Below are positions 9,958 to 49,472 of a stretch of 64,000 nucleotides of DNA, piece by piece; position 1 is the stretch's first letter, and each line of letters opens with the position of its first letter. Source of the stretch: an uncultured Acidobacteriota bacterium (GTDB taxonomy: Bacteria; Acidobacteriota; Thermoanaerobaculia; UBA5066; Gp7-AA6); assembly GCA_963805495.1 (NCBI GenBank), contig CAWDUQ010000002.1, positions 17,244 to 81,243 of the forward strand, in the 5' to 3' direction. The position numbers and the translations under genes are program-made. Below the pieces are notes generated by a model. The model did no database searches. It was not told the origin of the DNA and saw nothing but the letters and a program-made list of their open reading frames with translations.

Positions 9958-10853
9958 ATGGCGACCGGGCCTTCTCTCGGACCGTACGAGCGGATCCTCT
10001 GGAGCAATCCGTCGATGACGCTCGGCACCTTCGACGCCTCTCCCGAGAACGAAGACTTCGAGACGGCGGGGGCCGTCGGCGACCGGCCGGCGATCGCGTT
10101 CTCCCGCTCTTCGGTCGGGATCCTGCAGGCCAAGCGCGACGCGTTCGTCTCGGACGGGACGGTCGCGGTCCTGCACAACCCGCGGCATCCGTACCGGCGG
10201 TTTCGTGTGGATCGGCGGGGCGATCACTGCGAGTGGGTGTCGGTCGAGCCGGAGCTGCTGCTCTCCGCGAACCCGCGGCTGGGGCACGATCCGGGACGAC
10301 CCTTCGCGGTTCCGTACGTTCCTCTGGAGCGTCGCGCCGCGGCGCTCGTTCGCCTCGTCGCGCGCCACCTTCGCGAGTGGGCGCCGCCGGACGAGCTGTG
10401 GGTGGAAGAGACGTTGCTCGAGGTGCTGGGCCTGCTCGCGCCCTCGCCGCGAGCGCTCGCAGGACGGGCGCGACTCCGCGGCACGACCGGGTCGTCCGGA
10501 GCGTGCGGGAGCTTCTCTCGAGCCGGCCGGAGCAGCCGTGGACGGTCGCGTCGATCGCCAAGGTCGTGGGCGTGTCGCCGTTCCACATGTGCCGGGTCTT
10601 CCGGCGGCGCGCGGGCTACACGCTCCACGGGTATCTGACCGAGCAGAGGCTGCGCCGGGCGCTGGTGCTGCTCGAAGACGGGCAAACGGACCTGCGCGCG
10701 ATCGCGGCGTCGCTCGGGTTCTCGAGCCACAGCCAGTTCACGGCGCGTTTCCATGCGGCGTTCGGGGCGACGCCGTCGCGGTTTCGCCGCGGCGCCGCGC
10801 CGGCGGTCGTGCGGGGGATGGCGGAGAAGCTGCGCATGAACGCCGCGGGGTAG
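9958..10853 (+). pseudogene. AraC/XylS-family transcriptional regulator with an apparent frameshift
   Basis: The N-terminal sensor-like part (..MTLGTFDASPENEDFE..FSRSSVGILQ..YRRFRVDRRGDHCEWV..) is in the frame of ORF 9910-10638. The HTH part (RHDRVVRSVRELL..WTVASIAKVVGVSPFHMCRVFRR..GFSSHSQFTARF) is in the frame that ends at 10853. The switch lies near 10450-10480. Confidence 0.7.
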
Positions 10854-10863
10854 ATGGCCTCGA

Positions 10864-10931
10864 GGGCGGCCACGACGGCCGCCCCTGCGAGAGCGCGTCC
10901 CCGGTCGTAGGGGCGGGGTTTATCCCCGCCC
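10864..10931. repeat. Inverted pair of family-2 REP units
   Basis: 10864-10888 reverse complement: GCAG GGGCGGCC GTCGT GGCCGCCC. 10907-10931: GTAG GGGCGGGG TTTAT CCCCGCCC. The pair lies between convergent stops. Confidence 0.8.
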
Positions 10932-10950
10932 GATTTCGGGCTCGGCGGGG

Positions 10951-11967
10951 CTACATCGTCAGCACCACCCGGAACCGCGCCTTGCCGCTCATCATCCGGT
11001 CGTACGCCTCGGCGGCGCGGTCGAGGGGGAAGATCTCGTTTCTCGATCGGACTCCCGTCTGCGCGGCGAATTTCAGCGTGTCCTGCGAGTCGATCGATCG
11101 GCCGGAGGGCCAGCCGGCGACGGAGCGGCGGTCGAAGATCAGGGCGAGGGCGGGCACCGGCAGGGGATCCGGCGGGGCGCCGACGACGATGAGCTTGCCG
11201 TCGGGGCTGAGGCCTCCGATGACGGCGGCCATGGCCGCGCCGTTGGTGACGGTCGCGAGGATGGCGCGCGCCCCGCCGAGCTTCGCGAGCTCCGCGGCCG
11301 GGTCCTGCGCCCGGGTGTCGATGTAGACGCGCGCGCCGAGCTCCTTCGCGAGGGGCGCCTTGTCGGCGCCGCGGGCGATCGCGACGGTGTCGAAGCCCAT
11401 CTTCGCGGCGAACTGGACGCCGAGGTGGCCGAGGCCGCCGATGCCGAGGATCGCGACGACATCGCCCGGGCGCGCGCCGGAGTTGCGGAGCGGATTGAAC
11501 GTCGTGACGCCGGCGCACATGAGCGGGGCGGCCTCCGCCGCCGTGAGACCGTCCGGGATCCGGGCCAGGACGGACCAGGGCGCGACGACGTAGTCGGCGT
11601 AGCCGCCGTCGAAGGCGATCCCGGTCACCTTCAGGCCGTTGCGGCAGGTCAGGAAATCGCCGCGCCGGCACGAGTCGCAGTACCCGCAGTGCCCGCCGTG
11701 CCAACCGATGCCGACGCGATCGCCGGCCTTCCAGAGGGGAGCGTCCGGGCCCACGGCGTCGACGACACCCGCGATCTCGTGGCCGGGCACGCGCGGGTAC
11801 GCGATCCCCGGAAACAGGCCCTCCTTCGTGAGCACGTCGCTGTGGCAGACGCCGCAGGCTTCGACCCGCACGCGGACTTGACCGGGGCCGGGCGCCGGGA
11901 TCTCGCGCTCCACTGTCTGAAAGGGCTGGTTGGCTCCGGGGACCTGGACGGCACGCATCTTGGGCAA
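10951..11967 (-). CDS. Zinc-dependent alcohol dehydrogenase (MDR family)
   Basis: CGVCHSD, GHEIAGVV, the structural-zinc Cys cluster CGYCDSCRRG and the GIGGLGHLG dinucleotide motif are all present. Confidence 0.9.
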   Translation of the reverse strand: MPKMRAVQVPGANQPFQTVEREIPAPGPGQVRVRVEACGVCHSDVLTKEGLFPGIAYPRVPGHEIAGVVDAVGPDAPLWKAGDRVGIGWHGGHCGYCDSCRRGDFLTCRNGLKVTGIAFDGGYADYVVAPWSVLARIPDGLTAAEAAPLMCAGVTTFNPLRNSGARPGDVVAILGIGGLGHLGVQFAAKMGFDTVAIARGADKAPLAKELGARVYIDTRAQDPAAELAKLGGARAILATVTNGAAMAAVIGGLSPDGKLIVVGAPPDPLPVPALALIFDRRSVAGWPSGRSIDSQDTLKFAAQTGVRSRNEIFPLDRAAEAYDRMMSGKARFRVVLTM

Positions 11968-36391: not shown

Positions 36392-38121
36392 GCCGGTCCG
36401 GCCTCGCCGGCGGGTTCCGGGGCGCGCGGGAGCGTGACGATGAAGGTCGTGCCCTCCCGCAGCCGGCTCTCGACGGCGATCGAGCCGCCGAGCGCGTCCA
36501 CGATCCGCCGGACGAGGGAGAGACCGAGGCCCATGCCCCCCACGTTCCCGTGGGCCCGGCTGCCGCGGTAGAAGGGCTCGAAGATCCGCGGCAGCTCCGC
36601 TTCCGGGATGCCGGGGCCGCGGTCCCGGATGGCGACGCGGATGCCGCGTTCGTCGGCCGCCGCGGAGACCGTGACGCGGCCGTCCTCGCCGCCGTACTTG
36701 ATCGCGTTGGAGAGGAGGTTCTCCATCAACGTGCGCACGGCCGGCTCGTCGCCCGCGACCGGCGGCAGCCCCGGCGGGATGTCCGCGTCGACCCGCGCGC
36801 CATTCTGTTCGGCGAGGTGGCGGCAGGCGTCGATGGCCTGGCCGACCGCCTCCTGAAGCGACGCGGAGCCCGAGTGCACGCTCTCGCCGCGGGCCTCGAT
36901 TCCGGCCTGGGCCAGCGCCGACTCGATCAGGCTCGAGAGCCGCCGGCCCTCCCTCTGGATCAGGTCGCCGTACTTCCGGACACGCGGCGCGTCAGCGATG
37001 AGGCCGTCCGAGAGATTCTGCCCCGCCGACCGGATCGCCGCGAGGGGCGTGCGAAGCTCGTGCGTCAGGCTGGCGACGAACTCAACCTGCTGTCGGGCAA
37101 GAAGCGCGGAGCGGTGCGCCGACGTGACGAGCACCGCCACCGCCGCCGCCAGCAGCAGCAGGATGCCGCCGCTGACCGCGAGATTGCGGGTGCGCGTGGC
37201 GTCGACGACGTCGTCGAGCGAGCCCGCGCGGTGCGTGGCCACGAGGAGCCAGGCCGCGTGCGGCATCCGTCCGGGTCCGGGGCCCGCGCCGGGAGGAGGA
37301 GGCCCCTCCGGGGTGCCCCCGTCGCGCCGCGCGAGCGTCCCGGGCTCGGCGACGGGACGCGGTCCGAAGAGCGGGACCTCGGCGTCGGGGACCCGGCCGG
37401 CGGAGGGCGCGAAGTCCGGGCGGCTGCGGTAGAGGATCGGCCGCGGGTCGCCGGCCCCGAGAACGGCGATGTCGTAGTCGCCGCGGACGCCGAAGTGGCG
37501 CGCGACGAGCTGCGGAAGTATCCGGCTCGAGATCGCGGCGCCGTCGAGGCGCACCAGCAGCCCTTCGCCGGACTCGAGGACGCCGAGGACAAGAACCGGC
37601 GGATCGTCGAGCAGGCGGATGAAGGACATGCGGGGCGGGCCGGGTCGGTCGCCGCTCCCGGTCGGCGGCTCGGGCGGCCGGTCGCTCCCGGCCGCGAGGA
37701 CCTGTCTCACGCCGGCGAGCTCGGCCGGCCAGGGTGTCGACGAAAGTCGGCCGGAGGAATCCATCTGCTCGAAGGACCAGTTCCCGCGCCCGTCCCGGCG
37801 GACCACGTCGACGCCCGCAACGAGCGATGGGAAGCGGGCGTCGGCCGCCCACCTTGCGCGGGCGGCCGCAAGACCGGCGGCGAGGTCGGCGTCGCCGCGG
37901 GGCCGGAGCGCCTCGCCGAAGGTCCGCATGGCGCGCCCCACCTCGCGGTCGAACTCGATCGCAACCGCGTCGGCCGCCGCGCGGGCCGAGGCCTGGAGGC
38001 GCTCGCGCTCGGCGTCGCGAACCTCTCCGATCCAGCGGAACTGGAGGGTGGCGAGGACCGCGAGGAGCGCGAAGAGGAGGCCCGCGGCGAAGAGCGAGTT
38101 GCGAATCGCGCTGCGCGCCAT
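36388..38121 (-). CDS. Sensor histidine kinase
   Basis: H-box SLTHELRTPL, N-box NLLSNAIKY, and DRGPGI / GGMGLGLS are present. There are two TM segments around a periplasmic domain. An ATGA overlap links it to the regulator gene. Confidence 0.9.
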   Translation of the reverse strand: MARSAIRNSLFAAGLLFALLAVLATLQFRWIGEVRDAERERLQASARAAADAVAIEFDREVGRAMRTFGEALRPRGDADLAAGLAAARARWAADARFPSLVAGVDVVRRDGRGNWSFEQMDSSGRLSSTPWPAELAGVRQVLAAGSDRPPEPPTGSGDRPGPPRMSFIRLLDDPPVLVLGVLESGEGLLVRLDGAAISSRILPQLVARHFGVRGDYDIAVLGAGDPRPILYRSRPDFAPSAGRVPDAEVPLFGPRPVAEPGTLARRDGGTPEGPPPPGAGPGPGRMPHAAWLLVATHRAGSLDDVVDATRTRNLAVSGGILLLLAAAVAVLVTSAHRSALLARQQVEFVASLTHELRTPLAAIRSAGQNLSDGLIADAPRVRKYGDLIQREGRRLSSLIESALAQAGIEARGESVHSGSASLQEAVGQAIDACRHLAEQNGARVDADIPPGLPPVAGDEPAVRTLMENLLSNAIKYGGEDGRVTVSAAADERGIRVAIRDRGPGIPEAELPRIFEPFYRGSRAHGNVGGMGLGLSLVRRIVDALGGSIAVESRLREGTTFIVTLPRAPEPAGEAGPA

Positions 38122-38274
38122 GCGGGCAATCTAGCATCGGGTCCGGCCGGGCCGGGGCGATCCCGGACGGATTTACATCTCTTACCGAAGCCTTGCCGCG
38201 CCGTGATGACCCGGGGGCGCGCGACGCGAGATCCTTCCCGTCGTTCGCGGCGAGACCGCGGAAAGGAGCCGGAC

Positions 38275-38781
38275 ATGACGAGGGTGGGGAAGACCGGGCT
38301 CGGCATCGCGGGCGGTTTGGTCCTGGCGGGGTCCCTGGCCTTTGCGCAGGATGCGGGGCGGCGGCCGCTCCTGCCTGGCGGCGGTGCGGGACACGGGCGC
38401 TGCGGCGAGAAGCTCGTCCAGTCGCTCGGCCTGTCGGCGGACCAGCAGGCCGCGCTCGAGACGCTGCGGAACGAAACCGCGGACGCGATCCGCCCGCTCG
38501 CCGAGCAGCTGCATGCGCTCCACGGGCAGATCGAGACCGCGGCCGACGGCGCGAGCCCGGACGCGTGCGCGATCGGCGGCCTGGTGATCCAGGGCAAGGC
38601 GATCCGTTCTCAGATGGACGAGGTACGGAAGACCGCCGAAGCGACGTTCGTCGCGGGGTTGTCGGCCGACCAGAAGGCGACGTACGATGGCTACGTTTCG
38701 ATCAATCCGGAATGCACGGCGGTCGGAGCCGGCTTCATGCGGCCGTTCCCGATGGAGCCTCCCCGGGCGCAGCACTTCTGA
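38275..38781 (+). CDS. Periplasmic CpxP/Spy-like (LTxxQ-motif) protein
   Basis: AAAGGAG lies upstream of the ATG and there is a signal peptide. Two LSADQ(Q/K) motifs sit in helical context. The gene is divergent from the two-component operon. Confidence 0.6.
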   Translation: MTRVGKTGLGIAGGLVLAGSLAFAQDAGRRPLLPGGGAGHGRCGEKLVQSLGLSADQQAALETLRNETADAIRPLAEQLHALHGQIETAADGASPDACAIGGLVIQGKAIRSQMDEVRKTAEATFVAGLSADQKATYDGYVSINPECTAVGAGFMRPFPMEPPRAQHF

Positions 38782-39591: not shown

Positions 39592-39686
39592 TTCTGGCCG
39601 TGGCGGGCGATCGCGTGACTCCCCGCGCGCGAGTCACTCAGGGCCTCTGGCACCGTGATTGCTCCTCCGAGACTTCGGAGGTGAAC

Positions 39687-40889
39687 ATGCAGAAGAAGAC
39701 TGTGCTGTTCGCGGCGATTTTTGCGGGCGTCCTCGCCGTCGCCGCACCCTCGGCTCCGGCGCGCGCAGATGTCGCCGTGAGCTTCTCGTTTTTTCACCGG
39801 AACCTCTCGCCGTACGGCCGGTGGGTTTCCGTGGGGTCCTACGGCCAGTGCTGGGCTCCCGCCGGCGTCCTGGCCGGCTGGCAGCCGTACACGGTGGGCC
39901 ACTGGATTTACACCGACTACGGCTGGACCTGGGTGTCCTCGGATCCCTGGGGCGACGTCACGTACCGCTACGGAACCTGGACCCTCGCGCCGCCTTATGG
40001 CTGGGTGTGGGTCCCGGGGTTCGTCTGGGCGCCGTCCTGGGTGACGTGGTCGTACACGGATGACTACGTGGGATGGGCTCCGATTCCGCCCACGTTCTCG
40101 CTGTCGGTCTCGGGCTACGTCGGGGCCCCGGTCATCGTCAGCCGGACGGCCTACGTCTTCGTCCCGACCAACCGATTCGTCAACGCGGACGTGACTCGTG
40201 TGCGGGTCCCCGTCCAGGACAACTCCGTCATTCTCGCGCGCAGCCGGAAGGTGACGCGCTTCCCGGTCTCGGGTGGCATCGTCCGGAACCAGGGACCCGA
40301 GCCCGCCCGGATCGAGCGGGTGGCGAAGGTCTCCATCCCGCGAGCGGGAGCCGGCGAAGTCGGGATCGCGCCGGTCCGTGTCGACGCCCATCGGAGCGGG
40401 AACCGGATCTCCGTGGTCGCTCCGGCCTCCGCCAAGAAGACGGAAGGCCGGGCGGTCTCGGCGACCGGGAAGTCCTCGTCCGGCAAGCGGAGCACGCACA
40501 ATGAAGGCGCTCGGCCGCCCGCGTCGCGCGAATCGCAACCCAGGGCCACCCACGAAACGCATCCTTCGCACGACAAGGATCGCTCCGTCAAGGTCGAGGA
40601 GAAGCCGAGCCACGGAACGGCGGCGCGGCCGCCGGAAACCCGGGAATCGGTGCCCTCGCGCCAGAAGGCCCGGCCCGAGACTCACGAGTCGACGGCGACG
40701 CACCAGGCCCGCGCGGAGGAACACGTGCGCCCCGGCGAGAAGCCGGCTCCGAAGGAGTCTGCGCATTCCGAATCGGCCCGGCCGAGCGAGCCTCACGGAG
40801 CGCCGCAGAATGAGAAGCGCGCGCACGCGAAAAAGCCCCCGGCCAGGCCCCGGCCCGAGAAGGCGGACAAGGGCGAGAAGCCTTCCTGA
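39687..40889 (+). CDS. Secreted protein with Y/W-x-W-G-x-W-type repeats and a long basic low-complexity tail
   Basis: GGAGGTG lies upstream of the ATG and there is a signal peptide. The repeats are YGRWVSVGSYGQCWAP, GHWIYTDYGWTWVS and YGTWTLAPPYGWVWVPG. The last 160 aa or so are rich in His, Lys, Pro, Glu and Ser. Confidence 0.6.
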   Translation: MQKKTVLFAAIFAGVLAVAAPSAPARADVAVSFSFFHRNLSPYGRWVSVGSYGQCWAPAGVLAGWQPYTVGHWIYTDYGWTWVSSDPWGDVTYRYGTWTLAPPYGWVWVPGFVWAPSWVTWSYTDDYVGWAPIPPTFSLSVSGYVGAPVIVSRTAYVFVPTNRFVNADVTRVRVPVQDNSVILARSRKVTRFPVSGGIVRNQGPEPARIERVAKVSIPRAGAGEVGIAPVRVDAHRSGNRISVVAPASAKKTEGRAVSATGKSSSGKRSTHNEGARPPASRESQPRATHETHPSHDKDRSVKVEEKPSHGTAARPPETRESVPSRQKARPETHESTATHQARAEEHVRPGEKPAPKESAHSESARPSEPHGAPQNEKRAHAKKPPARPRPEKADKGEKPS

Positions 40890-40899
40890 AGCAGGTCGC

Positions 40900-41601
40900 A
40901 TGGACGACATCGAGAAGGGCGGACGCCGAGTCCGCCCTTCGATGTATTCGGGCGGGCCGGCCCGGACGCGCTCCGGCGGTATAGTCACCGCCGTGCGGGC
41001 GGAGCGGTCGGGCCCCCTGACCGGCGTCGTTCTCGCGGCGGGCGCTTCCACGCGCATGGGCGAGAACAAGCTGTTCCTGCGCGTCGGCGGCGAGACGATG
41101 CTCCGGCGGGTGGTCCGGCGGGCGCTCGGGGCCGGGCTCGATCCGGTGATCGTGGTTCTCGGCCACGAGGCGGACCGGGCGCAGTGGGAGCTCGCGGACA
41201 TCGGAGCCGTTTCGGTCCGCAATCCGGACTTCGCGGCCGGCCAGCACACTTCGTTCCGGGCCGGGATCGCGGCGGTGCCTCCCGGCGCGTCCGGCGCCGT
41301 CGTCCTGCTCGCCGACATGCCCCACGTGGACGAGGCCATGATCGCCGCGCTCGTCGACCGTTACCGCGAATCCGGGAGTCCCCTCGTGATCTCCGAGTAC
41401 GGGGGCGTCCATGCGCCGCCGACCCTCTACGACCGGGCGCTCTTCGAAGAGATCGCGGCGATGACCGGAGGCGGCTGCGGACGCCAGGTGGTCGAGCGCC
41501 ACCGCGCCGAGGCGGGCGTCGTCGCCTGGCCCGCCGAGAAGCTCGCGGACCTCGACTCGCCGGCGGACGTCGAGAATCTCCGCGCGTCCGGGGCCGCGTA
41601 G
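40900..41601 (+). CDS. mocA: MobA/MocA-like molybdenum cofactor cytidylyltransferase
   Basis: GVVLAAGASTRMGENKL is the NTP-transferase P-loop-like motif, and ..LLADMP.. is present. The start is uncertain: ATG 40900, ATG 40942 or GTG 40993. Confidence 0.8.
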   Translation: MDDIEKGGRRVRPSMYSGGPARTRSGGIVTAVRAERSGPLTGVVLAAGASTRMGENKLFLRVGGETMLRRVVRRALGAGLDPVIVVLGHEADRAQWELADIGAVSVRNPDFAAGQHTSFRAGIAAVPPGASGAVVLLADMPHVDEAMIAALVDRYRESGSPLVISEYGGVHAPPTLYDRALFEEIAAMTGGGCGRQVVERHRAEAGVVAWPAEKLADLDSPADVENLRASGAA

Positions 41602-41605
41602 CCGC

Positions 41606-42589
41606 ATGCGCGCCGACCTCCTCGCCCTCGCGGGCCGGCTCGCCGAAAAGGAGGAGGCCTTCGCCCTGGCGACGGTCGTGCGCCGGCAGGCCGCTTCGAG
41701 CGCCCAGGCCGGCGACGGGGCGCTCATCACGGCGGACGGCGCCTTCCACGGCTGGCTCGGGGGAAGCTGCACGCAGCCGACCGTGATCCGCGAGGCGCTC
41801 AAGGCGATCACCGACGGCGCGCCGCGTCTGATCGCGCTCGCGCCGGACCCGCAATCCGAAAAACGCCCCGGGATCCTGGTGTTTCCGATGACCTGCCACA
41901 GTGGAGGCAGCGTGGACATATACATCGAACCGGTCCTGCCGCCGGCGCGGCTACTCGTCTTCGGAGTCTCGCCCGTCGCGCAGGCGCTCGCGCGGCTGGG
42001 TCGCGCGATGGGCTACGCGGTCCACGTGGCCGACCCGGCGGCGGAGCCGGGCGCGTTTCCGGGCGCCGAGCGGCTCTGGACCGGTCCCGACGAGGTGCTG
42101 GCGCTGCCGGGCGGCCGCCCCTGGGCGGTCGTCGCGACGATGGGCGAGCGCGACGAGGCCGCGGTCCGGGCCGCGCTCTCGGCCGATCCGGCCTACCTCG
42201 GCGTCGTCGCGAGCTCGAAGCGTTTCGGAGAGATCCGCGAGTCGCTCCTCTCCGGCGGCGTCGACGCGCAGGCCCTCGCCCGGATCCAGAGCCCCGCGGG
42301 CCTCGACATCGGCGCGCGCGCCCCGGAGGAGATCGCGGTCTCGATCCTCGCCGAGATCGTGCGCGTGCGCCGGTCCGGTGCGGAGCCGGCCCGCGCGCCG
42401 GCGGGTCTTCCCGTCGTGGAGGCGCGCGAGGAGCGCGACCCGGTCTGCGGAATGACGGTCGAGGTCTCCGGCGCGCGCCACCGGGCGGAGGTCGGAGGCC
42501 GCACCTGGTATTTCTGCTGCGGGGGGTGCCGCGAGAAGTTCCTCGCGGCCCCGGCGCGCTTCGCGCCGGCAGCGGGAGCGGGCGCGTGA
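41606..42589 (+). CDS. XdhC/CoxF-type molybdoenzyme maturation factor fused to a C-terminal YHS/TRASH metal-binding domain
   Basis: The XdhC_CoxI N-domain is ..FALATVVRRQAASSAQAGDGALI... A Rossmann-like domain LLVFGVSPVAQALARL follows. The C-terminus DPVCGMTVEVSGARHRAEVGGRTWYFCCGGCREKFLAAPARF fits the YHS pattern. Confidence 0.85.
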   Translation: MRADLLALAGRLAEKEEAFALATVVRRQAASSAQAGDGALITADGAFHGWLGGSCTQPTVIREALKAITDGAPRLIALAPDPQSEKRPGILVFPMTCHSGGSVDIYIEPVLPPARLLVFGVSPVAQALARLGRAMGYAVHVADPAAEPGAFPGAERLWTGPDEVLALPGGRPWAVVATMGERDEAAVRAALSADPAYLGVVASSKRFGEIRESLLSGGVDAQALARIQSPAGLDIGARAPEEIAVSILAEIVRVRRSGAEPARAPAGLPVVEAREERDPVCGMTVEVSGARHRAEVGGRTWYFCCGGCREKFLAAPARFAPAAGAGA

Positions 42590-43485
42590 GGCAGGAGATC
42601 CGGGCGATCCAGGAAGGGATGGAGCGCCAGGGGTACATCGCCGAGCCGGCGATCGCGACCTCTCTTTTCCTCTCGACCGAGATGGGCAAGCCCCTCCTCG
42701 TCGAGGGCGACGCCGGCGTCGGAAAGACCGAAATCGCGAAGGTCCTGGCGCGCCTGCTCGGCCGGCCGCTGATCCGCCTGCAGTGCTACGAGGGGCTCGA
42801 CGTCCAGACCGCGCTCTACGAGTGGGACTACCCGAGGCAGATGCTCCGCCTGCGGATGGCGGGGGAGAGCGGCATGGACCCCGAAGCCGCCGAGCACGTC
42901 ATCTTCTCGCGCAAGTACCTCCTGGAGAGGCCGATCCTGCAGGCCATCACCCTGAAAGACGGGCCGGCCGTGCTCCTCATCGACGAGATCGACCGGGCCG
43001 ACGACGGGTTCGAGGCGTTCCTCCTCGAAGTGCTCTCGGACTTCCAGGTCACGATCCCGGAGCTCGGGACGATCCGCGCCGAGCACCGGCCCCACGTCGT
43101 CCTGACGTCCAATCGGACGCGCGAGATCGGGGACGCGCTGCGCCGCCGCTGTCTCTACCTCTATGTCGAGCACCCGAGCTTCGAAAAGGAGGTCCGCATC
43201 ATCCGGGCGCGCGTGCCCGGGGCGAGCGAGAAGTTGTCGGCCGAGATCGGACGCTTCCTGCAGGCGCTGCGCGGGCGGCGCCTGCTCAAGGCGCCGGGCG
43301 TGGCCGAGACGATCGACTGGGCGCAGGCCCTCGTGCGCCTCCACCGCGACGGCCTCGACGCCGAGACCGTCCAGCAGACGCTGGGTTGCCTGCTCAAGGA
43401 TCACAACGACATCGTCGACCTGGCCGCCCCCGAGCTTTCGACCCTCGTCGACGGGGCGCGCGCCGAGGCGGCTTCGATAGGATGA
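42586..43485 (+). CDS. coxD: MoxR-like AAA+ ATPase (CoxD-type)
   Basis: Walker A GDAGVGKT and Walker B LLIDEIDRA are present. The GTG start overlaps the upstream stop (GTGA). Confidence 0.9.
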   Translation: MRQEIRAIQEGMERQGYIAEPAIATSLFLSTEMGKPLLVEGDAGVGKTEIAKVLARLLGRPLIRLQCYEGLDVQTALYEWDYPRQMLRLRMAGESGMDPEAAEHVIFSRKYLLERPILQAITLKDGPAVLLIDEIDRADDGFEAFLLEVLSDFQVTIPELGTIRAEHRPHVVLTSNRTREIGDALRRRCLYLYVEHPSFEKEVRIIRARVPGASEKLSAEIGRFLQALRGRRLLKAPGVAETIDWAQALVRLHRDGLDAETVQQTLGCLLKDHNDIVDLAAPELSTLVDGARAEAASIG

Positions 43486-44732
43486 CCGCGGTGGACCTCG
43501 TGGCGCACGTGGCGGCTTTCGCTGGCGCTCTTCGGGAGCGCGGGGTCCGCGCGGGCCTCTCGGACGAGGCTGACGCCGTGGCCGCCCTGACGCTCGTCGA
43601 CCTCGCGGACCGCGAGGAGGTGCGCCTGGCGCTGCGGACGGCGCTGAAAATCCGCGCGCGCGACGCCGGGGTCTTCGAGGAGCTCTTCGCGCGCCTCTGG
43701 AGCAGCGCGGGCCGGCCGGCGCGCGAGCGCGCGGCCCGGGCCCGGTCGAGTCGGCGGGATGCGCCGCAGAAAAACTTCGGCGGCCTGCCGGCGTCGGCGG
43801 CCCGGGAAGTCGACCGGGAGGTGCGCGACGGGTCGGACCGAACGCCCGGCTACAGCCCCGAAGCGATGCTTCGCCGCAAGCCTTTCGACGAATGCTCCGA
43901 GCGGGACCTCGCCGCGATGGAGCGGCTGATGTCGCGCCTCGCCCTCTCGCTTGCGACGCGCCGCAGCCGGCGGCTCGTCCCGACCCGGGGCCGCGGCCGC
44001 GTCGATCCGCGCCGCAGCTTCCGGAAGGCCGTCGGGACGGCCGGCGAGCCGCTGCGCTTGGCGCGGCGGGAGCGGGCGATCGAGGAGCCGCGCCTGGTCG
44101 TCCTCTGCGACACCAGCGGCTCGATGGACCGCCACGTGCGGTTCCTGCTTTCCTTCCTGCTGTCGCTCAAGAAAGCCGCGCGCCGCACCGAGCTCTTCGC
44201 GTTCAACACCTCCCTCGTGAGGCTGACGCCCTGGATCTCGCCGGCGAAGATCGCGGCCACACTCGAGCGCCTCGCCGCCGGCGTTCCGGGCTGGTCCGGC
44301 GGCACCCAGATCGGCCGCAGCCTCGGCGCCTTCGTCGAGCGATACCTGGACGAGCTCGTCGATGCGAGGACGGTGGTCGTGATCGTCAGCGACGGTCTCG
44401 ACCGCGGGGACACGGCGGAGCTCGCGGCGGCGATGCGGGCGATCCGAGCCCGGGCGCGCAGGATCGTCTGGCTCAATCCGCTGCTCGGCGACGCGCGGTA
44501 CGAGCCGACCGCGCGGGGAATGGCGGCCGCCCTGCCGCACGTCGACGTCTTCGCGTCGGCGCACAACCTGGAAGCGCTCGAGAGGCTCGTTCCGCGGCTG
44601 TCGGCCGCCAGGGGTCAGCGTCTCGGATTTTTCGGATCCGAACCGGCTAGATCATTGGACGAGTCAGCCCTCGGATCCGAAAAATCGAGACCTGACCCCG
44701 TCGTTTTTCGCCTTCGAAAGGAGAGGTCATGA
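43482..44732 (+). CDS. coxE: VWA-domain protein (CoxE-type) with a repeat-encoded C-terminal extension
   Basis: [14 protein letters not shown] and ..[16 protein letters not shown].. are present. The homology-like sequence ends near ..[11 protein letters not shown]. The final 40 codons or so are read through the family-1 hairpin at 44611-44699. ATGA overlaps occur at both ends. Confidence 0.85.
44611..44699. repeat. Family-1 variant inverted pair (89-nt hairpin)
   Basis: Left arm: GGGGTCAGCGTCTCGGATTTTTCGGATCCGAA. Right arm, reverse complement: GGGGTCAGGTCTCGATTTTTCGGATCCGAGGG. It lies between the CoxE-like body and the coxM start. Confidence 0.8.
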
Positions 44733-45598
44733 TCCCGGCTGCGTTCGACTACCACTCTCCCGGCTCGCTCGCCGAGGCGCTCGAGCTCCTCGGCCGCTAC
44801 GACGACGCGAAGGTGCTGTCGGGAGGCCAGAGCCTCCTGCCGCTTCTGAAGCTTCGCCTCGGCTCGGCCGGGCACCTGATCGACATCAACCGCCTGCCCG
44901 GTCTCGAGTACATCAAGGAGGAGGGCGGGTTTCTGAAGATCGGCGGCCGGACGCGCGAGACGGCCCTCGAGCGGTCCGACATCGTTCGCGCGAAGTACCC
45001 GATCCTGGCCGACACCGCGGCCGTGATCGCGGACCCGATCGTGCGCAACCTCGCGACCGTCGGCGGCAACCTCGCGCACGGGGACCCGGCCAACGACCAC
45101 CCGGCGACGATGCTCGCCCTGGGGGCGGTCGTCGTCGCGACCGGACCGAAGGGCGAGCGAATGATTCCGATCGACGAGTTTTTCACGGGCCTCTTCGAGA
45201 CGGCGCTCGGGAAGAACGAGATCCTGACCGAGATCCGGGTTCCGCGTCCCGAGGGCAAGAGCCGCGGCGCCTACGTCAAGCTCGAGCGCAAGGTCGGGGA
45301 TTTCGCGACGGCGGGCGTGGCCGCGCAGGTCACTCTCGGTGCGGGCGGCGAGATCGCGAAGGCCGGCATCGGCCTGACCAATGCGGGCCTCACCCCCGTG
45401 CGGGCCGCGGAGGCCGAGAAGTTCCTCCAGGGCAAGAAGCCCGACGCCGCGACGATCGCGGAGGCGGGCAGGCTCGCGGCGGGGGCCTCGGATCCCTCGC
45501 CGGACCGGCGGGGCACGGTCGAGTACAAGAAGGAGATGGCCCGCGTGCTCACGATGCGGGCGTTGAAGAAGGCCGTCGAACGGGCCCAGGGAGCGTAG
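44729..45598 (+). CDS. coxM: CO dehydrogenase medium (FAD-binding) subunit
   Basis: AAGGAGAGG lies upstream of the ATG. The FAD-binding pattern ..[14 protein letters not shown].. is present and the size (289 aa) and position before coxS-coxL fit. Confidence 0.9.
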
Positions 45599-45600
45599 CC

Positions 45601-46089
45601 ATGGCGAAACACCACATCAAGATCACGGTCAACGGTGCCGCGCGCGAGGGGGACGTCGAGTCGCGCACCCTCCTCGTCCATTTCCTCCGCGAGACGCTTC
45701 GACTGACGGGGACGCACATCGGCTGCGACACGTCGCACTGCGGCGCGTGCACCGTGCTCCTCGACGGGACTCCGGTCAAGTCGTGCACCGTCCTTGCCGT
45801 GCAGGCCGACGGCCGGCAGGTCATGACGGTCGAGGGGCTCGAGCAGGGGGGCAAGCTCGACCCGATCCAGGAGGGCTTCTATCAGGAGCACGGCCTGCAG
45901 TGCGGCTACTGCACGCCCGGCATGATGATGACGAGCTACGCTCTGCTGAAGATCAACGCGAGCCCGAGCGAGGGGGAGATCCGGCAGGCCATCTCCGGCA
46001 ACCTCTGCCGGTGCACCGGCTACGTCAACATCGTCAAGTCCGTCCAGCACGCGGCGGCGGCCATGGGCGCGGCCGCGCCCGCGAAGTAG
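45601..46089 (+). CDS. coxS: CO dehydrogenase small ([2Fe-2S]) subunit
   Basis: The two cluster motifs are [11 protein letters not shown] and CGYCTPG...CRCTGY. Confidence 0.95.
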
Positions 46090-46097
46090 GGGGATCC

Positions 46098-48464
46098 ATG
46101 GAACCCAAGACGACCGCCGCCGTCGGAGGCATGGGCCACTCGATCAAGCGCAAGGAAGACCCGCGCTTCCTCCGCGGCCAGGGCAACTACGTCGACGACA
46201 TCCAGCTTCCGGGCATGCTCCACATGGACATCGTCCGCAGCCCCTATGCCCACGCGAAGATCAAGAAGATCGACTCCTCGAAGGCCCTCCAGGTGCCGGG
46301 CGTGCTCGCCGTCATCACCGGCGAGACGCTCGCGCAGTACAAGCTCCACTGGATGCCGACGCTGATGTCGGACACCCAGATGGTGCTCCCGACCGACCGC
46401 GTCATGTACCAGGCCCAGGAGGTCGCGGCGGTCATTGCGACCGACCGCTACACGGCGGCCGACGGGGTCGCGGCCGTCGAGGTCGAGTACGAGCCGCTGC
46501 CCGTCGTCCTCGACCCGTTCGAGGCGATGAAGCCGGGCGCGCCGGTGCTGCGGACCGACAAGGAAGGAAAGAAGGACAACCACATCTGGCACTGGGAGGC
46601 CGGGGACCGGGCGAAGACCGACGCCGCGTCGAAGGCCTCGGACGTCGTCGTCCGCGAGAAGATCTACATCCCGCGCATCCACGTCGCCTCGATCGAGACC
46701 TGCGGCTGCGTCGCGGACTTCCATCCCGCGACCGGCAAGCTCATCGTCTACATGACGACGCAGGCGCCGCACGCGATCCGCACGGTCTTCGCGCTCGTCG
46801 CCGGCCACGTGGGCCTCTCGGAGGAAAAGATCCGGATCGTGTCGCCCGACATCGGCGGCGGCTTCGGCGGGAAGGTGCCCGTGTACCCGGGGTACGTCAT
46901 CGCGGTCGCGGCCTCGGTCGTCATCGGCAAGCCCATCAAGTGGGTCGAGGACCGGATGGAAAACCTGCAGGCGGATTCCTTCGCCCGCGACTACCACATG
47001 GAGGCCGAGCTTTCGGCGAAGAAGGACGGCACCATGACGGCCCTGAAGATCAAGACCGTCGCCGACCACGGCTACGCCGACGCCGCGGCGAACCCGTCCA
47101 AGTTCCCGGCCGGGCTCTTCTCGATCTGCACCGGCTCCTACGACATCAAGACCGCGTTCTGCGAGGTCGACGGCGTCTACACGAACAAGCCGCCGGGAGG
47201 CGTCGCGTACCGCTGCTCGTTCCGCGTCACCGAGGCCGTGCACGCCATCGAGCGGATGGTCGACCGGCTCGCGCAGGAGCTGAAGATGGACCCGGCCGAG
47301 CTGCGGATGAAGAACTTCATCCCGCCCGACAAGTTCCCGTACCACTCGGCGCTCGGCTGGGAGTACGACAGCGGCAACTACCCCGCGGCCCTGAAGAAGG
47401 CCATGGAGATGATCGACTACGCGGGCCTGCGCAGGGAGCAGGCCGAGAAGCGGAAGAAGGGCGAGTTGATGGGCATCGGCATCTCGAGCTTCACCGAGAT
47501 CGTCGGCGCCGGGCCCTCCAAGCACTTCGACATCCTCGGCATCAAGATGTTCGACTCCTGCGAGCTCCGGATCCACCCCACGGGCAAGGCGATGGCGCGC
47601 TTCGGCACGAAGTCCCAGGGCCAGGGCCACGAGACGACCTACGCCCAGATCATCGCCGAGGAGCTCGGCATCCCCGCCGCCCACGTCGAGGTCGAAGAGG
47701 GCGACACGGACACGGCGCCCTACGGCCTGGGCACCTATGCCAGCCGCTCCACGCCGACGGCCGGCGCGGCCGGGGCGATGGCGGCCCGCAAGGTCCGCGA
47801 CAAGGCCCGCAAGATCGCGGCGTACCTGCTCGAGGTGGCCGAGGAGGACCTCGTCTGGGAGCCGGGCAAGTTCTCGGTCAAGGGCGCGCCGCAGAAATCC
47901 AAGACGATCCAGGACATCGCGTTCGCGGCCTACACGAACCACCCGCAGGGGATGGAGGCGGGGCTCGAGGCCGTCGACTACTACGATCCGCCAAACCTGA
48001 CGTTTCCGTTCGGCAGCTACATCTGCGTCGTCGACATCGATCGCGGCACGGGCGAGGTCAAGATCCGCCGGTTCGTCGCGGTCGACGACTGCGGCAACAT
48101 CATCAATCCCATGATCGTCGACGGCCAGATCCACGGCGGCCTTTCGATGGGCATGGCCCCGGCCCTGATGGAGGAGATCACCTACGACGCCAACGGCAAC
48201 AACCAGGCCGGCAGCTTCATGGACTACCTCGTTCCGACGTCGATGGAGACGCCGAAGTGGGAAACCGGCAAGACCGTGACGCCTTCGCCGCACCATCCGT
48301 TCGGCGCGAAGGGCGTGGGGGAGTCGGCCACGGTCGGCGCGCCGCCGGCGATCGTGAACGCCGTCGTCGACGCCCTGTCGCACCTGGGCGTGAAGCACAT
48401 CGACATCCCGATGACCCCCGAGAAGGTCTGGAACATCCTCCACGCCAAAGGGGTCGCCGAGTAG
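46098..48464 (+). CDS. coxL: Form I aerobic CO dehydrogenase large (Mo-Cu) subunit
   Basis: 788 aa of the molybdopterin hydroxylase family. The active-site loop GGVAYRCSFRVTEA carries the form I AYxCSFR signature. The gene order is M-S-L. Confidence 0.92.
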   Translation: MEPKTTAAVGGMGHSIKRKEDPRFLRGQGNYVDDIQLPGMLHMDIVRSPYAHAKIKKIDSSKALQVPGVLAVITGETLAQYKLHWMPTLMSDTQMVLPTDRVMYQAQEVAAVIATDRYTAADGVAAVEVEYEPLPVVLDPFEAMKPGAPVLRTDKEGKKDNHIWHWEAGDRAKTDAASKASDVVVREKIYIPRIHVASIETCGCVADFHPATGKLIVYMTTQAPHAIRTVFALVAGHVGLSEEKIRIVSPDIGGGFGGKVPVYPGYVIAVAASVVIGKPIKWVEDRMENLQADSFARDYHMEAELSAKKDGTMTALKIKTVADHGYADAAANPSKFPAGLFSICTGSYDIKTAFCEVDGVYTNKPPGGVAYRCSFRVTEAVHAIERMVDRLAQELKMDPAELRMKNFIPPDKFPYHSALGWEYDSGNYPAALKKAMEMIDYAGLRREQAEKRKKGELMGIGISSFTEIVGAGPSKHFDILGIKMFDSCELRIHPTGKAMARFGTKSQGQGHETTYAQIIAEELGIPAAHVEVEEGDTDTAPYGLGTYASRSTPTAGAAGAMAARKVRDKARKIAAYLLEVAEEDLVWEPGKFSVKGAPQKSKTIQDIAFAAYTNHPQGMEAGLEAVDYYDPPNLTFPFGSYICVVDIDRGTGEVKIRRFVAVDDCGNIINPMIVDGQIHGGLSMGMAPALMEEITYDANGNNQAGSFMDYLVPTSMETPKWETGKTVTPSPHHPFGAKGVGESATVGAPPAIVNAVVDALSHLGVKHIDIPMTPEKVWNILHAKGVAE

Positions 48465-48533: not shown

Positions 48534-49472
48534 TCAGGCGGCGCCGACCCGCAGGCGCCGCCGCGACGAGGCCTGGATCGCGCGGACGAAATCCTCGATG
48601 AAGGGGAGTGGCCGGCGCCGCTTGAGCGTCGCGGCGCTCCAGTGCCGCCGGAGTCCCTTGCGCGTGATGCGCTTCGCCGCGAGCGTGCCCGCGCGAACCT
48701 GGGGCGCGACGGCCCAGCGCGCGAGAACTCCGACGCCGAGGCCGGCGCGGGCCATCTCGATCAGGGCCTCCGTCAGCTCGATCGGCGACCAGCGGCGCGG
48801 CTCGACGCCCGCGGGCCGCAGCACGTAGCGATAGACGTCGAGGTCCTCGCGCGGGACCGACAGCGTCAGGAGCGTCTCGCCCGCGAAATCGGCGGCTTCG
48901 AGGTGCGGCCGCTTCGCCAGGGGATGGCGCGTGCTCATGACGGCGACGAGCTCGTCGTCGAACAGGGGATGGACCGCGATCCGGCGGCTCTTGACGGGAT
49001 CGCTGACGATCCCGACGTCGAGGTCGCCCGAGAGGAGCGCCGGAATCGGGCGCCGCGTGGCTTCGAGCACGATGCGGACGTCGACGGACGGATGGTTCGT
49101 CTGGAAGGCCCGGAGCGGCTCCGGGAGCCAGTGGTAGCAGGTGTAGCACTCGGTGGCGAGGCGGAGCACCCCGGCCGGGTCCGCCGACGTCGCAGCGATG
49201 TCCCGGGCGGCCGAGGCCATCTCCTCGCCAACCTTCCGCGCCGCCTCGATCAGGCGCACCCCCGCGGGCGTCGGTGTCATCCGCTTGTGGCCTCGCTGGA
49301 AGAGGGAGGTATCGAGGGCGCGCTCGGCGTCCGCGAGCTGGTGGGAGAGTGCAGATTGGGAGAGGTGAAGTCGCCGCGCGGCGGCGGTCAGCGTGCCCTC
49401 TTCGGAAACGGCGAGAACGAGCTGCAGGTGCCGGAGGTCGAGGCCGGCGGACGGTCGCTCCACGATGTTCAT
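48534..49472 (-). CDS. LysR-family transcriptional regulator
   Basis: The N-terminal HTH is [34 protein letters not shown], followed by a LysR substrate-binding domain. Confidence 0.9.

What the first reader, a model, noticed from the sequence alone, without database searches (positions are those of the whole stretch)
41606..42589. XdhC/CoxF-type maturation factor fused to a YHS/TRASH metal-binding domain
The 327-aa product has the two XdhC domains followed by DPVCGMTVE...YFCCGGCREKF, the YHS/TRASH Cys pattern associated with copper and heavy-metal handling proteins. Form I CODH needs Cu inserted into the MoSCu centre, and in Oligotropha the CoxD/E/F proteins are implicated in that step. An XdhC-YHS fusion directly upstream of coxD-coxE suggests a dedicated Cu-delivery module. 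I do not know of this fusion being characterised.
Basis: inference. Interest (0 to 1): 0.6.

Follow-up and report, generated by a model that had tools for sequence, protein, structure and literature searches.

The report
CoxF maturation factor with copper-type YHS tail
The gene is the CoxF-type helper protein of a copper-dependent CO dehydrogenase. It carries a small cysteine-rich YHS metal-binding domain on a flexible tether. The fusion is common in nature and I found no paper on it, and it points to CoxF as the protein that brings copper to the enzyme.

Summary
ORF 41606-42589 (+) encodes a 327-aa protein with XdhC_CoxI, XdhC_C and YHS domains, all above Pfam cut-offs. It lies in a tightly coupled operon mocA-coxF::YHS-coxD-coxE-coxM-coxS-coxL, and CoxL carries the form I loop AYRCSFR.

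The fusion is not special to this genome.
- About 123 of the 150 best 50%-identity cluster representatives carry the YHS tail.
- It occurs in at least seven phyla.
- In 251 Acidobacteriota genomes, 11 of 13 form I clusters have it. In 201 Actinomycetota genomes, all 38 do.
- No other XdhC paralogue in the Acidobacteriota sample has it.
- At the same C-terminal position, a relative carries an HMA (MxCxxC) domain and others carry short CC tails. Every such relative whose locus I checked (three) lies in a form I cluster.

The best reading is that this is the CoxF orthologue and that the tethered YHS domain (D278, C281, C304, C308) binds Cu(I) for assembly of the Mo-S-Cu centre. Copper binding itself is untested. 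I found no paper describing the fusion. This scan has noted the same fusion many times on other DNA, with the same reading. I class it as a new variant of a known kind, of moderate interest.

The parts
40993..41601 (+). mocA-like Moco cytidylyltransferase, first gene of the operon (start GTG 40993 inferred)
   Evidence: Pfam NTP_transf_3 E 1e-37. NCBIfam TIGR03310 E 1e-39, below its cut-off. About 100 nt of non-coding DNA lies upstream.
41606..42589 (+). coxF::YHS, the finding (327 aa)
   Evidence: AF2 model with pLDDT 92.9 and pTM 0.81.
41642..41833 (+). XdhC_CoxI N-domain (residues 13-76). It holds C55, which is at least 90% conserved in YHS-bearing CoxF but found in only 12 of 49 other XdhCs.
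41951..42358 (+). XdhC_C Rossmann domain (residues 116-251). Just before it, outside these coordinates at about 41888-41908, lies the CoxF-type M95-T-C97-H-S99-G-G loop, which has a 2-residue insertion relative to the canonical CGG.
42374..42436 (+). Flexible linker (about residues 257-277)
   Evidence: pLDDT is 57 for residues 261-270. Linker length varies from about 20 to more than 130 residues in relatives.
42437..42571 (+). YHS domain (residues 278-322). Candidate ligands are D278, C281, (M283), C304 and C308. C305 is variable.
   Evidence: Pfam YHS 41.8 bits. Conservation. Domain model pLDDT 85. The nearest folds are the YHS domains of toluene monooxygenases and L24e, at weak E-values.
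42586..43485 (+). coxD (MoxR-type AAA+ ATPase), GTGA overlap with coxF
43482..44732 (+). coxE (VWA_CoxE), ATGA overlap with coxD
   Evidence: Pfam VWA_CoxE E 3e-56..
44729..45598 (+). coxM (FAD subunit)
45601..46089 (+). coxS (2x[2Fe-2S] subunit)
46086..48464 (+). coxL, form I Mo-Cu CO dehydrogenase large subunit (start GTG 46086 or ATG 46098)
   Evidence: AYRCSFR loop. TIGR02416 1257 bits, above cut-off.

Best explanation
The gene encodes the CoxF orthologue, the XdhC-family maturation factor of a form I (Mo-Cu) aerobic CO dehydrogenase. It is co-translated with mocA, coxD, coxE and coxMSL. The XdhC core (N-domain plus Rossmann domain) handles or shields the sulfurated molybdopterin-cytosine-dinucleotide cofactor, as in other XdhC proteins. 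The C-terminal YHS domain hangs on a flexible linker of about 20 residues. I infer that it binds Cu(I) through C281, C304 and C308 plus D278 or M283. It would then hand the copper on to the Mo-SH site of CoxL, either directly or through the CoxF-specific core thiols C55 and C97. CoxD (AAA+) and CoxE (VWA) would assist. Shown here: the architecture, the conservation, and the exclusive association with form I clusters. Inferred: copper binding and the transfer route.
For: (1) All three domains score above Pfam cut-offs. CoxL is form I by motif and by TIGR02416.

(2) The operon is tightly coupled, with 4-nt overlaps.

(3) The association is specific.
- Of 30 fusion loci in seven or more phyla, 25 have a form I CoxL and 5 are cut by contig ends. 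None of 50 non-fusion XdhC loci has one.
- In Acidobacteriota, 13 of 251 genomes have a form I CoxL. The neighbouring CoxF has YHS in 11, a CC tail in 1 and no thiol module in 1.
- In that sample no other XdhC paralogue carries YHS. The remaining YHS hits lie in reading frames about 760-1000 aa or longer, a size that fits copper-pump-like (P-type ATPase) genes (inferred from length only).
- In Actinomycetota, 38 of 38 form I genomes have a YHS-bearing CoxF.

(4) There are convergent modules at the same position. P0165 carries an HMA MxCxxC domain in coxMSL(AYRCSFR)-G-D-E-F::HMA-mocA. CC-tail variants P0236 and G124 also sit in form I clusters. P0236 is nested among YHS-bearing sisters in the core tree with 99-100 SH-aLRT support.

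(5) The ligand set D + 3 Cys is invariant or nearly so. It is the set proposed for the copper-responsive YHS domain of the M. phlei adenylyl cyclase (PMC4626032).

(6) In O. carboxidovorans, coxF and coxE mutants make CODH that has Mo and sulfane sulfur but no Cu. CoxF there is XdhC-type and was proposed as the copper escort (PMC4240915).

(7) This is the only YHS domain in the whole genome.
Against: No metal-binding measurement exists for any XdhC-YHS protein. According to the Linder paper, the toluene monooxygenase YHS domain has no bound metal in its crystal, the L24e TRASH fold carried a Cd2+ ion in the ribosome crystal, and copper binding to the YHS domains of Cu-ATPases is unproven. The fold alone therefore does not dictate copper. 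O. carboxidovorans CoxF works without a YHS domain (280 aa, PMC4240915), and one Acidobacteriota form I cluster (G055) has no thiol-rich tail, so the module is dispensable in some lineages. The genomes sampled are related to one another, so the counts overstate independence. Pseudomonadota were not sampled.
Confidence: 0.65

Rival explanations
1. The YHS domain is a copper sensor rather than a carrier. Copper binding would switch the CoxF core, or its interaction with CoxD/CoxE, on or off, so that maturation proceeds only when copper is available.
For: [quoted passage not shown] The specific link to the one copper-containing enzyme of the family fits sensing as well as delivery.
Against: Replacement by an HMA domain, the classical Cu(I) chaperone and transfer fold, and by short CC tails at the same position fits a carrier better than an allosteric switch. 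The variable-length flexible linker is a poor allosteric coupler.
Confidence: 0.12
2. The YHS domain is a structural Zn-ribbon-like module that docks CoxF onto a partner (CoxL, CoxD or CoxE) and has no role in copper chemistry.
For: The nearest folds are L24e and the metal-free YHS domain of toluene monooxygenases. There are weak Pfam hits to zf-FCS and TRASH zinc-finger-like families in relatives.
Against: A docking module would not be expected to be interchangeable with HMA or with a bare CC tail. It also would not be expected to be restricted to the only copper-dependent member of the enzyme family.
Confidence: 0.12
3. The Cys-rich domain is a persulfide (sulfur) relay for the sulfuration of Mo, not a metal site.
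For: XdhC proteins cooperate with a cysteine desulfurase in Moco sulfuration (review cited in PMC4240915). The centre needs a bridging sulfide.
Against: Sulfuration is needed by all xanthine-oxidase-family enzymes, yet none of their XdhC paralogues in the samples carries YHS. In Oligotropha, coxF and coxE mutants still contain sulfane sulfur but lack Cu. HMA is a metal-binding domain.
Confidence: 0.06

Closest known systems
CoxF of Oligotropha (Afipia) carboxidovorans OM5 (pHCG3, coxMSLDEFG; 280 aa; PMC4240915)
   Same: Both are XdhC-family proteins (N-domain plus Rossmann domain) encoded with coxD and coxE beside form I coxMSL. In Oligotropha the gene is required for copper to appear in the Mo-S-Cu site. 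Both have a Met/Cys-containing loop at the canonical XdhC CGG position (MCPSHGTM there, MTCHSGG here).
   Different: As described in the paper, Oligotropha CoxF has no YHS domain. It ends in a proposed phytase-like motif. Here a tethered YHS domain of about 45 residues follows the core, and the accessory genes lie upstream of coxMSL instead of downstream. I did not align the Oligotropha sequence itself.
XdhC of Rhodobacter capsulatus and XdhC-like structures 2we7/2we8 (M. smegmatis homologue of Rv0376c) and 3on5
   Same: The core has the same two-domain fold (Foldseek E 5e-18, TM about 0.6 over 264 columns; phmmer E 1.5e-18). The CGG-loop cysteine (C97) is invariant.
   Different: Those proteins have short C-terminal tails without a thiol-rich module (median 14 residues in 49 paralogues; a few carry a single Cys). 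They lack the CoxF-type C55 and the M-x-C-x-S insertion, and they serve enzymes without copper.
YHS domains of Cu-transporting P-type ATPases and of the M. phlei adenylyl cyclase (PMC4626032)
   Same: Same Pfam family (PF04945), with the same conserved Asp plus three Cys.
   Different: Here the domain is fused to a molybdoenzyme chaperone rather than to a pump or a cyclase. The proposed role is delivery to an enzyme active site.
HMA (Atx1/CopZ-like) Cu(I) chaperone domains
   Same: An HMA domain occupies the same C-terminal position in a CoxF relative (P0165, L084), which implies an equivalent job.
   Different: It is a different fold (ferredoxin-like, MxCxxC). It is not present in this window.

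Membership tests
XdhC family (Pfam PF02625 + PF13478) | N-terminal XdhC_CoxI domain and XdhC_C Rossmann domain above gathering scores | tested here: met
   55.7 bits (cut-off 24.3) and 107.8 bits (cut-off 29.7). Fold match to 2we8 and 3on5.
XdhC family | Invariant Cys in the CGG loop before the Rossmann domain | tested here: met
   C97 aligns with a Cys in 49 of 49 non-fusion XdhCs.
CoxF (form I CODH maturation factor) | Encoded in a cluster with coxD (AAA+), coxE (VWA_CoxE) and form I coxMSL | tested here: met
CoxF | Orthology to O. carboxidovorans CoxF by sequence | tested here: inconclusive
   Only the motif quoted in PMC4240915 (M107CPSHGTM) could be compared with M95TCHSGG.
CoxF | Required for Cu in the [CuSMoO2] site | not testable with these tools
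   Needs genetics and metal analysis.
YHS domain (Pfam PF04945) | Score above gathering threshold | tested here: met
   41.8 bits against 30.3.
YHS domain | Conserved Asp plus three Cys proposed as metal ligands (PMC4626032) | tested here: met
   D278 is at least 90% conserved (invariant in A2). C281, C304 and C308 are invariant.
YHS domain | Binds copper | not testable with these tools
   No biochemical data exist for any XdhC-YHS protein.
TRASH (Pfam PF24273, HVO_1752 C-terminal TRASH) | Score above gathering threshold | tested here: not met
   26.7 bits against a cut-off of 27. It is related, but I file the domain under YHS.
Form I (Mo-Cu) CO dehydrogenase, CoxL | AYXCSFR active-site loop and a TIGR02416 equivalog score | tested here: met
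   GGVAYRCSFRVT. 1257 bits against 991.

The most novel reading that the evidence does not exclude
CoxF is the long-sought copper insertase of Mo-Cu CO dehydrogenase. The tethered YHS domain captures Cu(I) and passes it to the CoxF-specific core thiols (C55/C97), which lie next to the bound sulfurated Moco. The Mo-S-Cu unit would then be built on, or at the mouth of, the chaperone before final ligation by the CoxL cysteine. YHS, HMA and CC tails would be interchangeable capture modules for this step.
Probability: 0.3. Interest if true: 0.75.

Novelty: new variant of a known kind. Interest (0 to 1): 0.55.

Why it matters
How copper reaches the buried Mo-S-Cu centre of aerobic CO dehydrogenase is unresolved. 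The current model comes from one alphaproteobacterium and rests on weak sequence motifs in CoxF. Aerobic CO dehydrogenase drives atmospheric CO consumption by soil and marine bacteria. The present finding shows three things. Most CoxF proteins outside that model organism carry a recognisable thiol-rich metal module (YHS, or HMA, or a CC tail). The module is found only on the chaperone of the copper-containing enzyme. Its ligand residues are invariant. This gives a concrete handle for experiments: a 60-residue domain to express, three cysteines to mutate, and a deletion phenotype to look for under copper limitation. It also gives an annotation marker for true form I cox clusters.

Tried and rejected
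- Complex prediction of CoxE (alignment A3) with CoxF::YHS (A1) gave no answer (score 0.00). This is no evidence either way.
- A Foldseek search of the isolated YHS model found only weak matches (E 0.6-2). The top hits were the expected YHS and TRASH folds, but the scores are not significant.
- Sequence search of the PDB found no solved XdhC with a YHS domain.
- Literature searches for XdhC+YHS, CoxF+YHS/TRASH, CoxD/E/F+copper, and XdhC+CODH+smegmatis found no description of the fusion.
- Apparent exceptions to the form I association were examined and dismissed.
  - L011-L014 and L027 are cut by contig ends. L014's downstream TAT-signal S-L-M enzyme is a separate operon.
  - G024's apparent long match is a read-through artefact, and there is no YHS there.
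  - G190 is a decayed relic.
- I considered and rejected the idea that C55 and C97 are both CoxF-specific. C97 is family-wide and only C55 is clade-enriched.
- A first attempt to centre a genome search on a locus id failed and was redone through handles.
- The model coordinates could not be read, so the distance between the YHS thiols and the core thiols was not measured.

Full report
**Observation.** The ORF at 41606-42589 on the + strand starts at the first possible start codon (ATG) and ends at TGA 42587-42589. It encodes 327 residues. Pfam finds XdhC_CoxI (residues 13-76), XdhC_C (116-251) and YHS (278-322), each above its gathering score. A TRASH model scores just below its cut-off. NCBIfam has no model that the protein passes, so pipelines name it only 'XdhC family protein'.

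**Surroundings.** The gene lies in a same-strand block.
- mocA-like cytidylyltransferase, about 40993-41601
- the finding, 41606-42589
- coxD, a MoxR-type AAA+ ATPase, 42586-43485
- coxE, VWA_CoxE, 43482-44732
- coxM, 44729-45598
- coxS, 45601-46089
- coxL, 46086/46098-48464

The junctions are GTGA, ATGA and ATGA overlaps or gaps of 2-4 nt, which indicates one transcript with coupled translation. About 100 nt of non-coding DNA precedes mocA. CoxL carries GGVAYRCSFRVT and passes the aerobic CODH large-subunit equivalog TIGR02416 (1257 bits, cut-off 991), so the enzyme is form I (Mo-Cu). The genome has a single YHS domain, this one, and one other XdhC gene about 115 kb away.

**How common is the fusion?**
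- All 120 best 90%-identity clusters (62-92% identity) have the same three domains.
- In an exhaustive search of 1.84 billion representatives, 575 scored E<1e-30. Among the 150 best, 117 match a strict YHS pattern and six more have a variant of it.
- One representative has an HMA domain instead, and about nine end in short tails with a CC pair.
- Some are triple fusions of MocA+XdhC+YHS.
- Linker length between core and YHS ranges from about 20 to more than 130 residues.

(a) Eighty loci from species-representative genomes were scanned with the window's proteins and with motif patterns.
- Thirty loci hold the fusion. They come from Acidobacteriota, Chloroflexota, Methylomirabilota/Rokubacteria, Verrucomicrobiota, Bacteroidota, Gemmatimonadota and Actinomycetota.
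- Nineteen of the 30 show AY[RK]CSFR in the flank.
- Six have a CoxL fragment of 60-88% identity at the contig edge.
- Five are cut off before coxL could appear. L014, the one with another molybdoenzyme downstream, has coxD-coxE upstream up to the contig end, and its downstream enzyme is a TAT-signal S-L-M enzyme in a separate operon.
- None of the 50 XdhC loci without YHS has a form I loop.

(b) In 251 Acidobacteriota genomes, CoxL identities are bimodal, at least 62% or at most 48%.
- Thirteen genomes are in the upper group.
- Their neighbouring CoxF has YHS in 11. One of these, G110, has a frameshift between core and YHS.
- One (G124) has a CC tail and one (G055) has no thiol module.
- A query made of the last part of XdhC_C plus linker plus YHS found contiguous matches only in those clusters and in G190. 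G190 is a relic in which a truncated coxM abuts the 3' half of coxF::YHS.
- All other YHS hits lie in reading frames about 760-1000 aa or longer, a size that fits copper-pump-like (P-type ATPase) genes; this is inferred from length only.

(c) In 201 Actinomycetota genomes, 38 have form I-type CoxL (58-65% identity).
- Thirty-five show a CoxF match reaching the YHS cysteines. The match usually lies directly after coxL, and in two genomes it lies on another contig.
- The three unclear cases, fetched and read, also have it.
- Some of these CoxL proteins have the AYACSFR variant of the loop.

Two of the 38 genomes (G343, G375), and G024 in the Acidobacteriota set, are unpublished. The counts include them, but no conclusion depends on them. 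Related genomes are not independent, so these are descriptive counts, not statistics.

**Convergent modules.** The HMA-bearing relative P0165 lies in coxM-S-L(AYRCSFR)-coxG-coxD-coxE-coxF::HMA-mocA. The CC-tail relative P0236 lies in mocA-coxF(CC)-coxD-[frdABCD]-coxE-coxG-coxMSL(AYRCSFR). G124's CC-tail CoxF also follows a form I coxL. I built a tree from the core only (70 CoxF-type rows plus 10 outgroup XdhCs; a quick IQ-TREE search; about half of the representatives were dropped by my anchoring pattern). The CoxF-type clade is supported at 100. It is dominated by YHS-bearing rows, and the CC and tail-less rows are scattered inside it. P0236 (CC) is sister to a YHS-bearing protein at 99, inside a clade supported at 100. 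So YHS looks like the usual state, with repeated replacement or loss. The root and the direction of change are not proven.

**Anatomy of the protein.**
- In 83 full-length fusions, C281, F303, C304 and C308 are invariant. D278, P279, M283, C55 and C97 are at least 90% conserved, and C305 varies.
- In 47 isolated tails, D, P, C, M, F, C, C and F are invariant.
- C97 is the family-wide CGG-loop cysteine (49 of 49 other XdhCs). C55 is enriched in the CoxF clade (12 of 49 elsewhere). The loop M95-T-C97-H-S99-G-G has a two-residue insertion relative to other XdhCs.
- The same region in Oligotropha CoxF (M107CPSHGTM) was proposed as a copper site (PMC4240915).
- Other XdhC paralogues have short tails after the Rossmann domain without a thiol-rich module (median 14 residues; a few carry a single Cys).
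- The AF2 model is confident (pLDDT 92.9, pTM 0.81), with a low-confidence linker at residues 261-270.
- The core matches the XdhC-like structures 2we7/2we8 and 3on5.
- The isolated YHS model (pLDDT 85) has as nearest neighbours the YHS domains of toluene and methane monooxygenase hydroxylases and ribosomal protein L24e. The E-values are weak because the domain is small.

**Mechanism.** Established knowledge:
- XdhC proteins bind and protect sulfurated Moco and insert it into xanthine-oxidase-family enzymes.
- In O. carboxidovorans, coxD mutants lack the sulfide, and coxE and coxF mutants have Mo and sulfane sulfur but no copper. CoxF was proposed as the copper escort (PMC4240915).
- The YHS domain of an M. 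phlei adenylyl cyclase confers a copper-specific response, with Asp plus three Cys proposed as ligands (PMC4626032).

I infer that the tethered YHS domain binds Cu(I) and supplies it for the last step of [CuSMoO2] assembly. Transfer would go either directly at the CoxL funnel or through the core thiols of CoxF. I give this 0.65. The rivals are a copper sensor (0.12), a structural Zn-ribbon docking module (0.12) and a persulfide relay (0.06). The rivals are disfavoured mainly by the HMA and CC-tail replacements and by the restriction of the module to the only copper enzyme of the family.

**Comparison and novelty.** The protein works like, and most likely is, CoxF. It differs from the studied Oligotropha protein by the added YHS module and by the position of the accessory genes upstream of coxMSL. 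Four literature searches, plus two papers read in part (PMC4240915, and a 2023 review of molybdoenzyme maturation, PMC10609526), gave no mention of an XdhC/CoxF-YHS fusion. The library lacks most subscription journals, so this is 'not found', not 'never published'. The architecture is visible in public domain annotations. This scan has recorded the same fusion in at least 52 other genomes, and follow-up reports reached the same reading. The lead to look for an HMA variant came from one of those notes, and I confirmed it independently. I class the finding as a new variant of a known kind, with interest 0.55.

**Led nowhere.** The CoxE-CoxF complex prediction gave no answer.

Noticed in passing
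L091 (G110:C1:1130000-1146000), about 10220-11549 on the - strand: In a complete 6.5-Mb Acidobacteriota genome, the closest CoxF relative (64% identity) stops after the XdhC core. The YHS domain continues in another frame immediately downstream. This is either a frameshift in the GC-rich linker (real or a sequencing error) or a split gene.
   Followed up: partly
L088 (G190:C1:621000-640999), 10037-11441 on the - strand: A relic of a form I cluster. A truncated coxM (59% identity, residues 1-236) abuts the 3' half of coxF::YHS. No form I coxL is present in that genome.
   Followed up: partly
P0140, P0143, P0189, P0200 (530-565 aa); P0207 (496 aa): There are triple fusions of MocA cytidylyltransferase + XdhC + YHS, and a reverse-order XdhC + MocA fusion without YHS. 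In the window these are adjacent separate genes.
   Followed up: partly
L095, L096, L098 (Actinomycetota form I coxL): The active-site loop reads AYACSFR instead of AYRCSFR in several Actinomycetota. L098 (G400) has two form I coxL copies, one of each loop type, with coxD-coxE between them.
   Followed up: no
L035-L077 (non-CoxF XdhC paralogues, mostly Chloroflexota): Many end in a short conserved tail of the type G-G-x-G-x-x-M (for example RGGTGKPM, QGGDGQVM) just after the Rossmann domain. Its function is unknown.
   Followed up: no
L086 10845-17328: A four-gene fumarate reductase/succinate dehydrogenase set (frdABCD-like) is inserted between coxD and coxE in a cox cluster whose CoxF has a CC tail.
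   Followed up: no
L024, L026, L054 (and L019, whose downstream flank is cut off about 0.8 kb after the gene): In these clusters coxMSL is followed directly by coxF::YHS, and no coxD or coxE appears in the available flank (about 7-10 kb downstream in L024, L026 and L054).
   Followed up: no
window 39600-40889 (+), 36550-38781 (+), 48534-49472 (-): A DUF6600 protein and an ORF with an LTXXQ (CpxP/Spy-like) motif lie upstream of the operon. A LysR-type regulator is encoded convergently just after coxL and may control the cluster.
   Followed up: no
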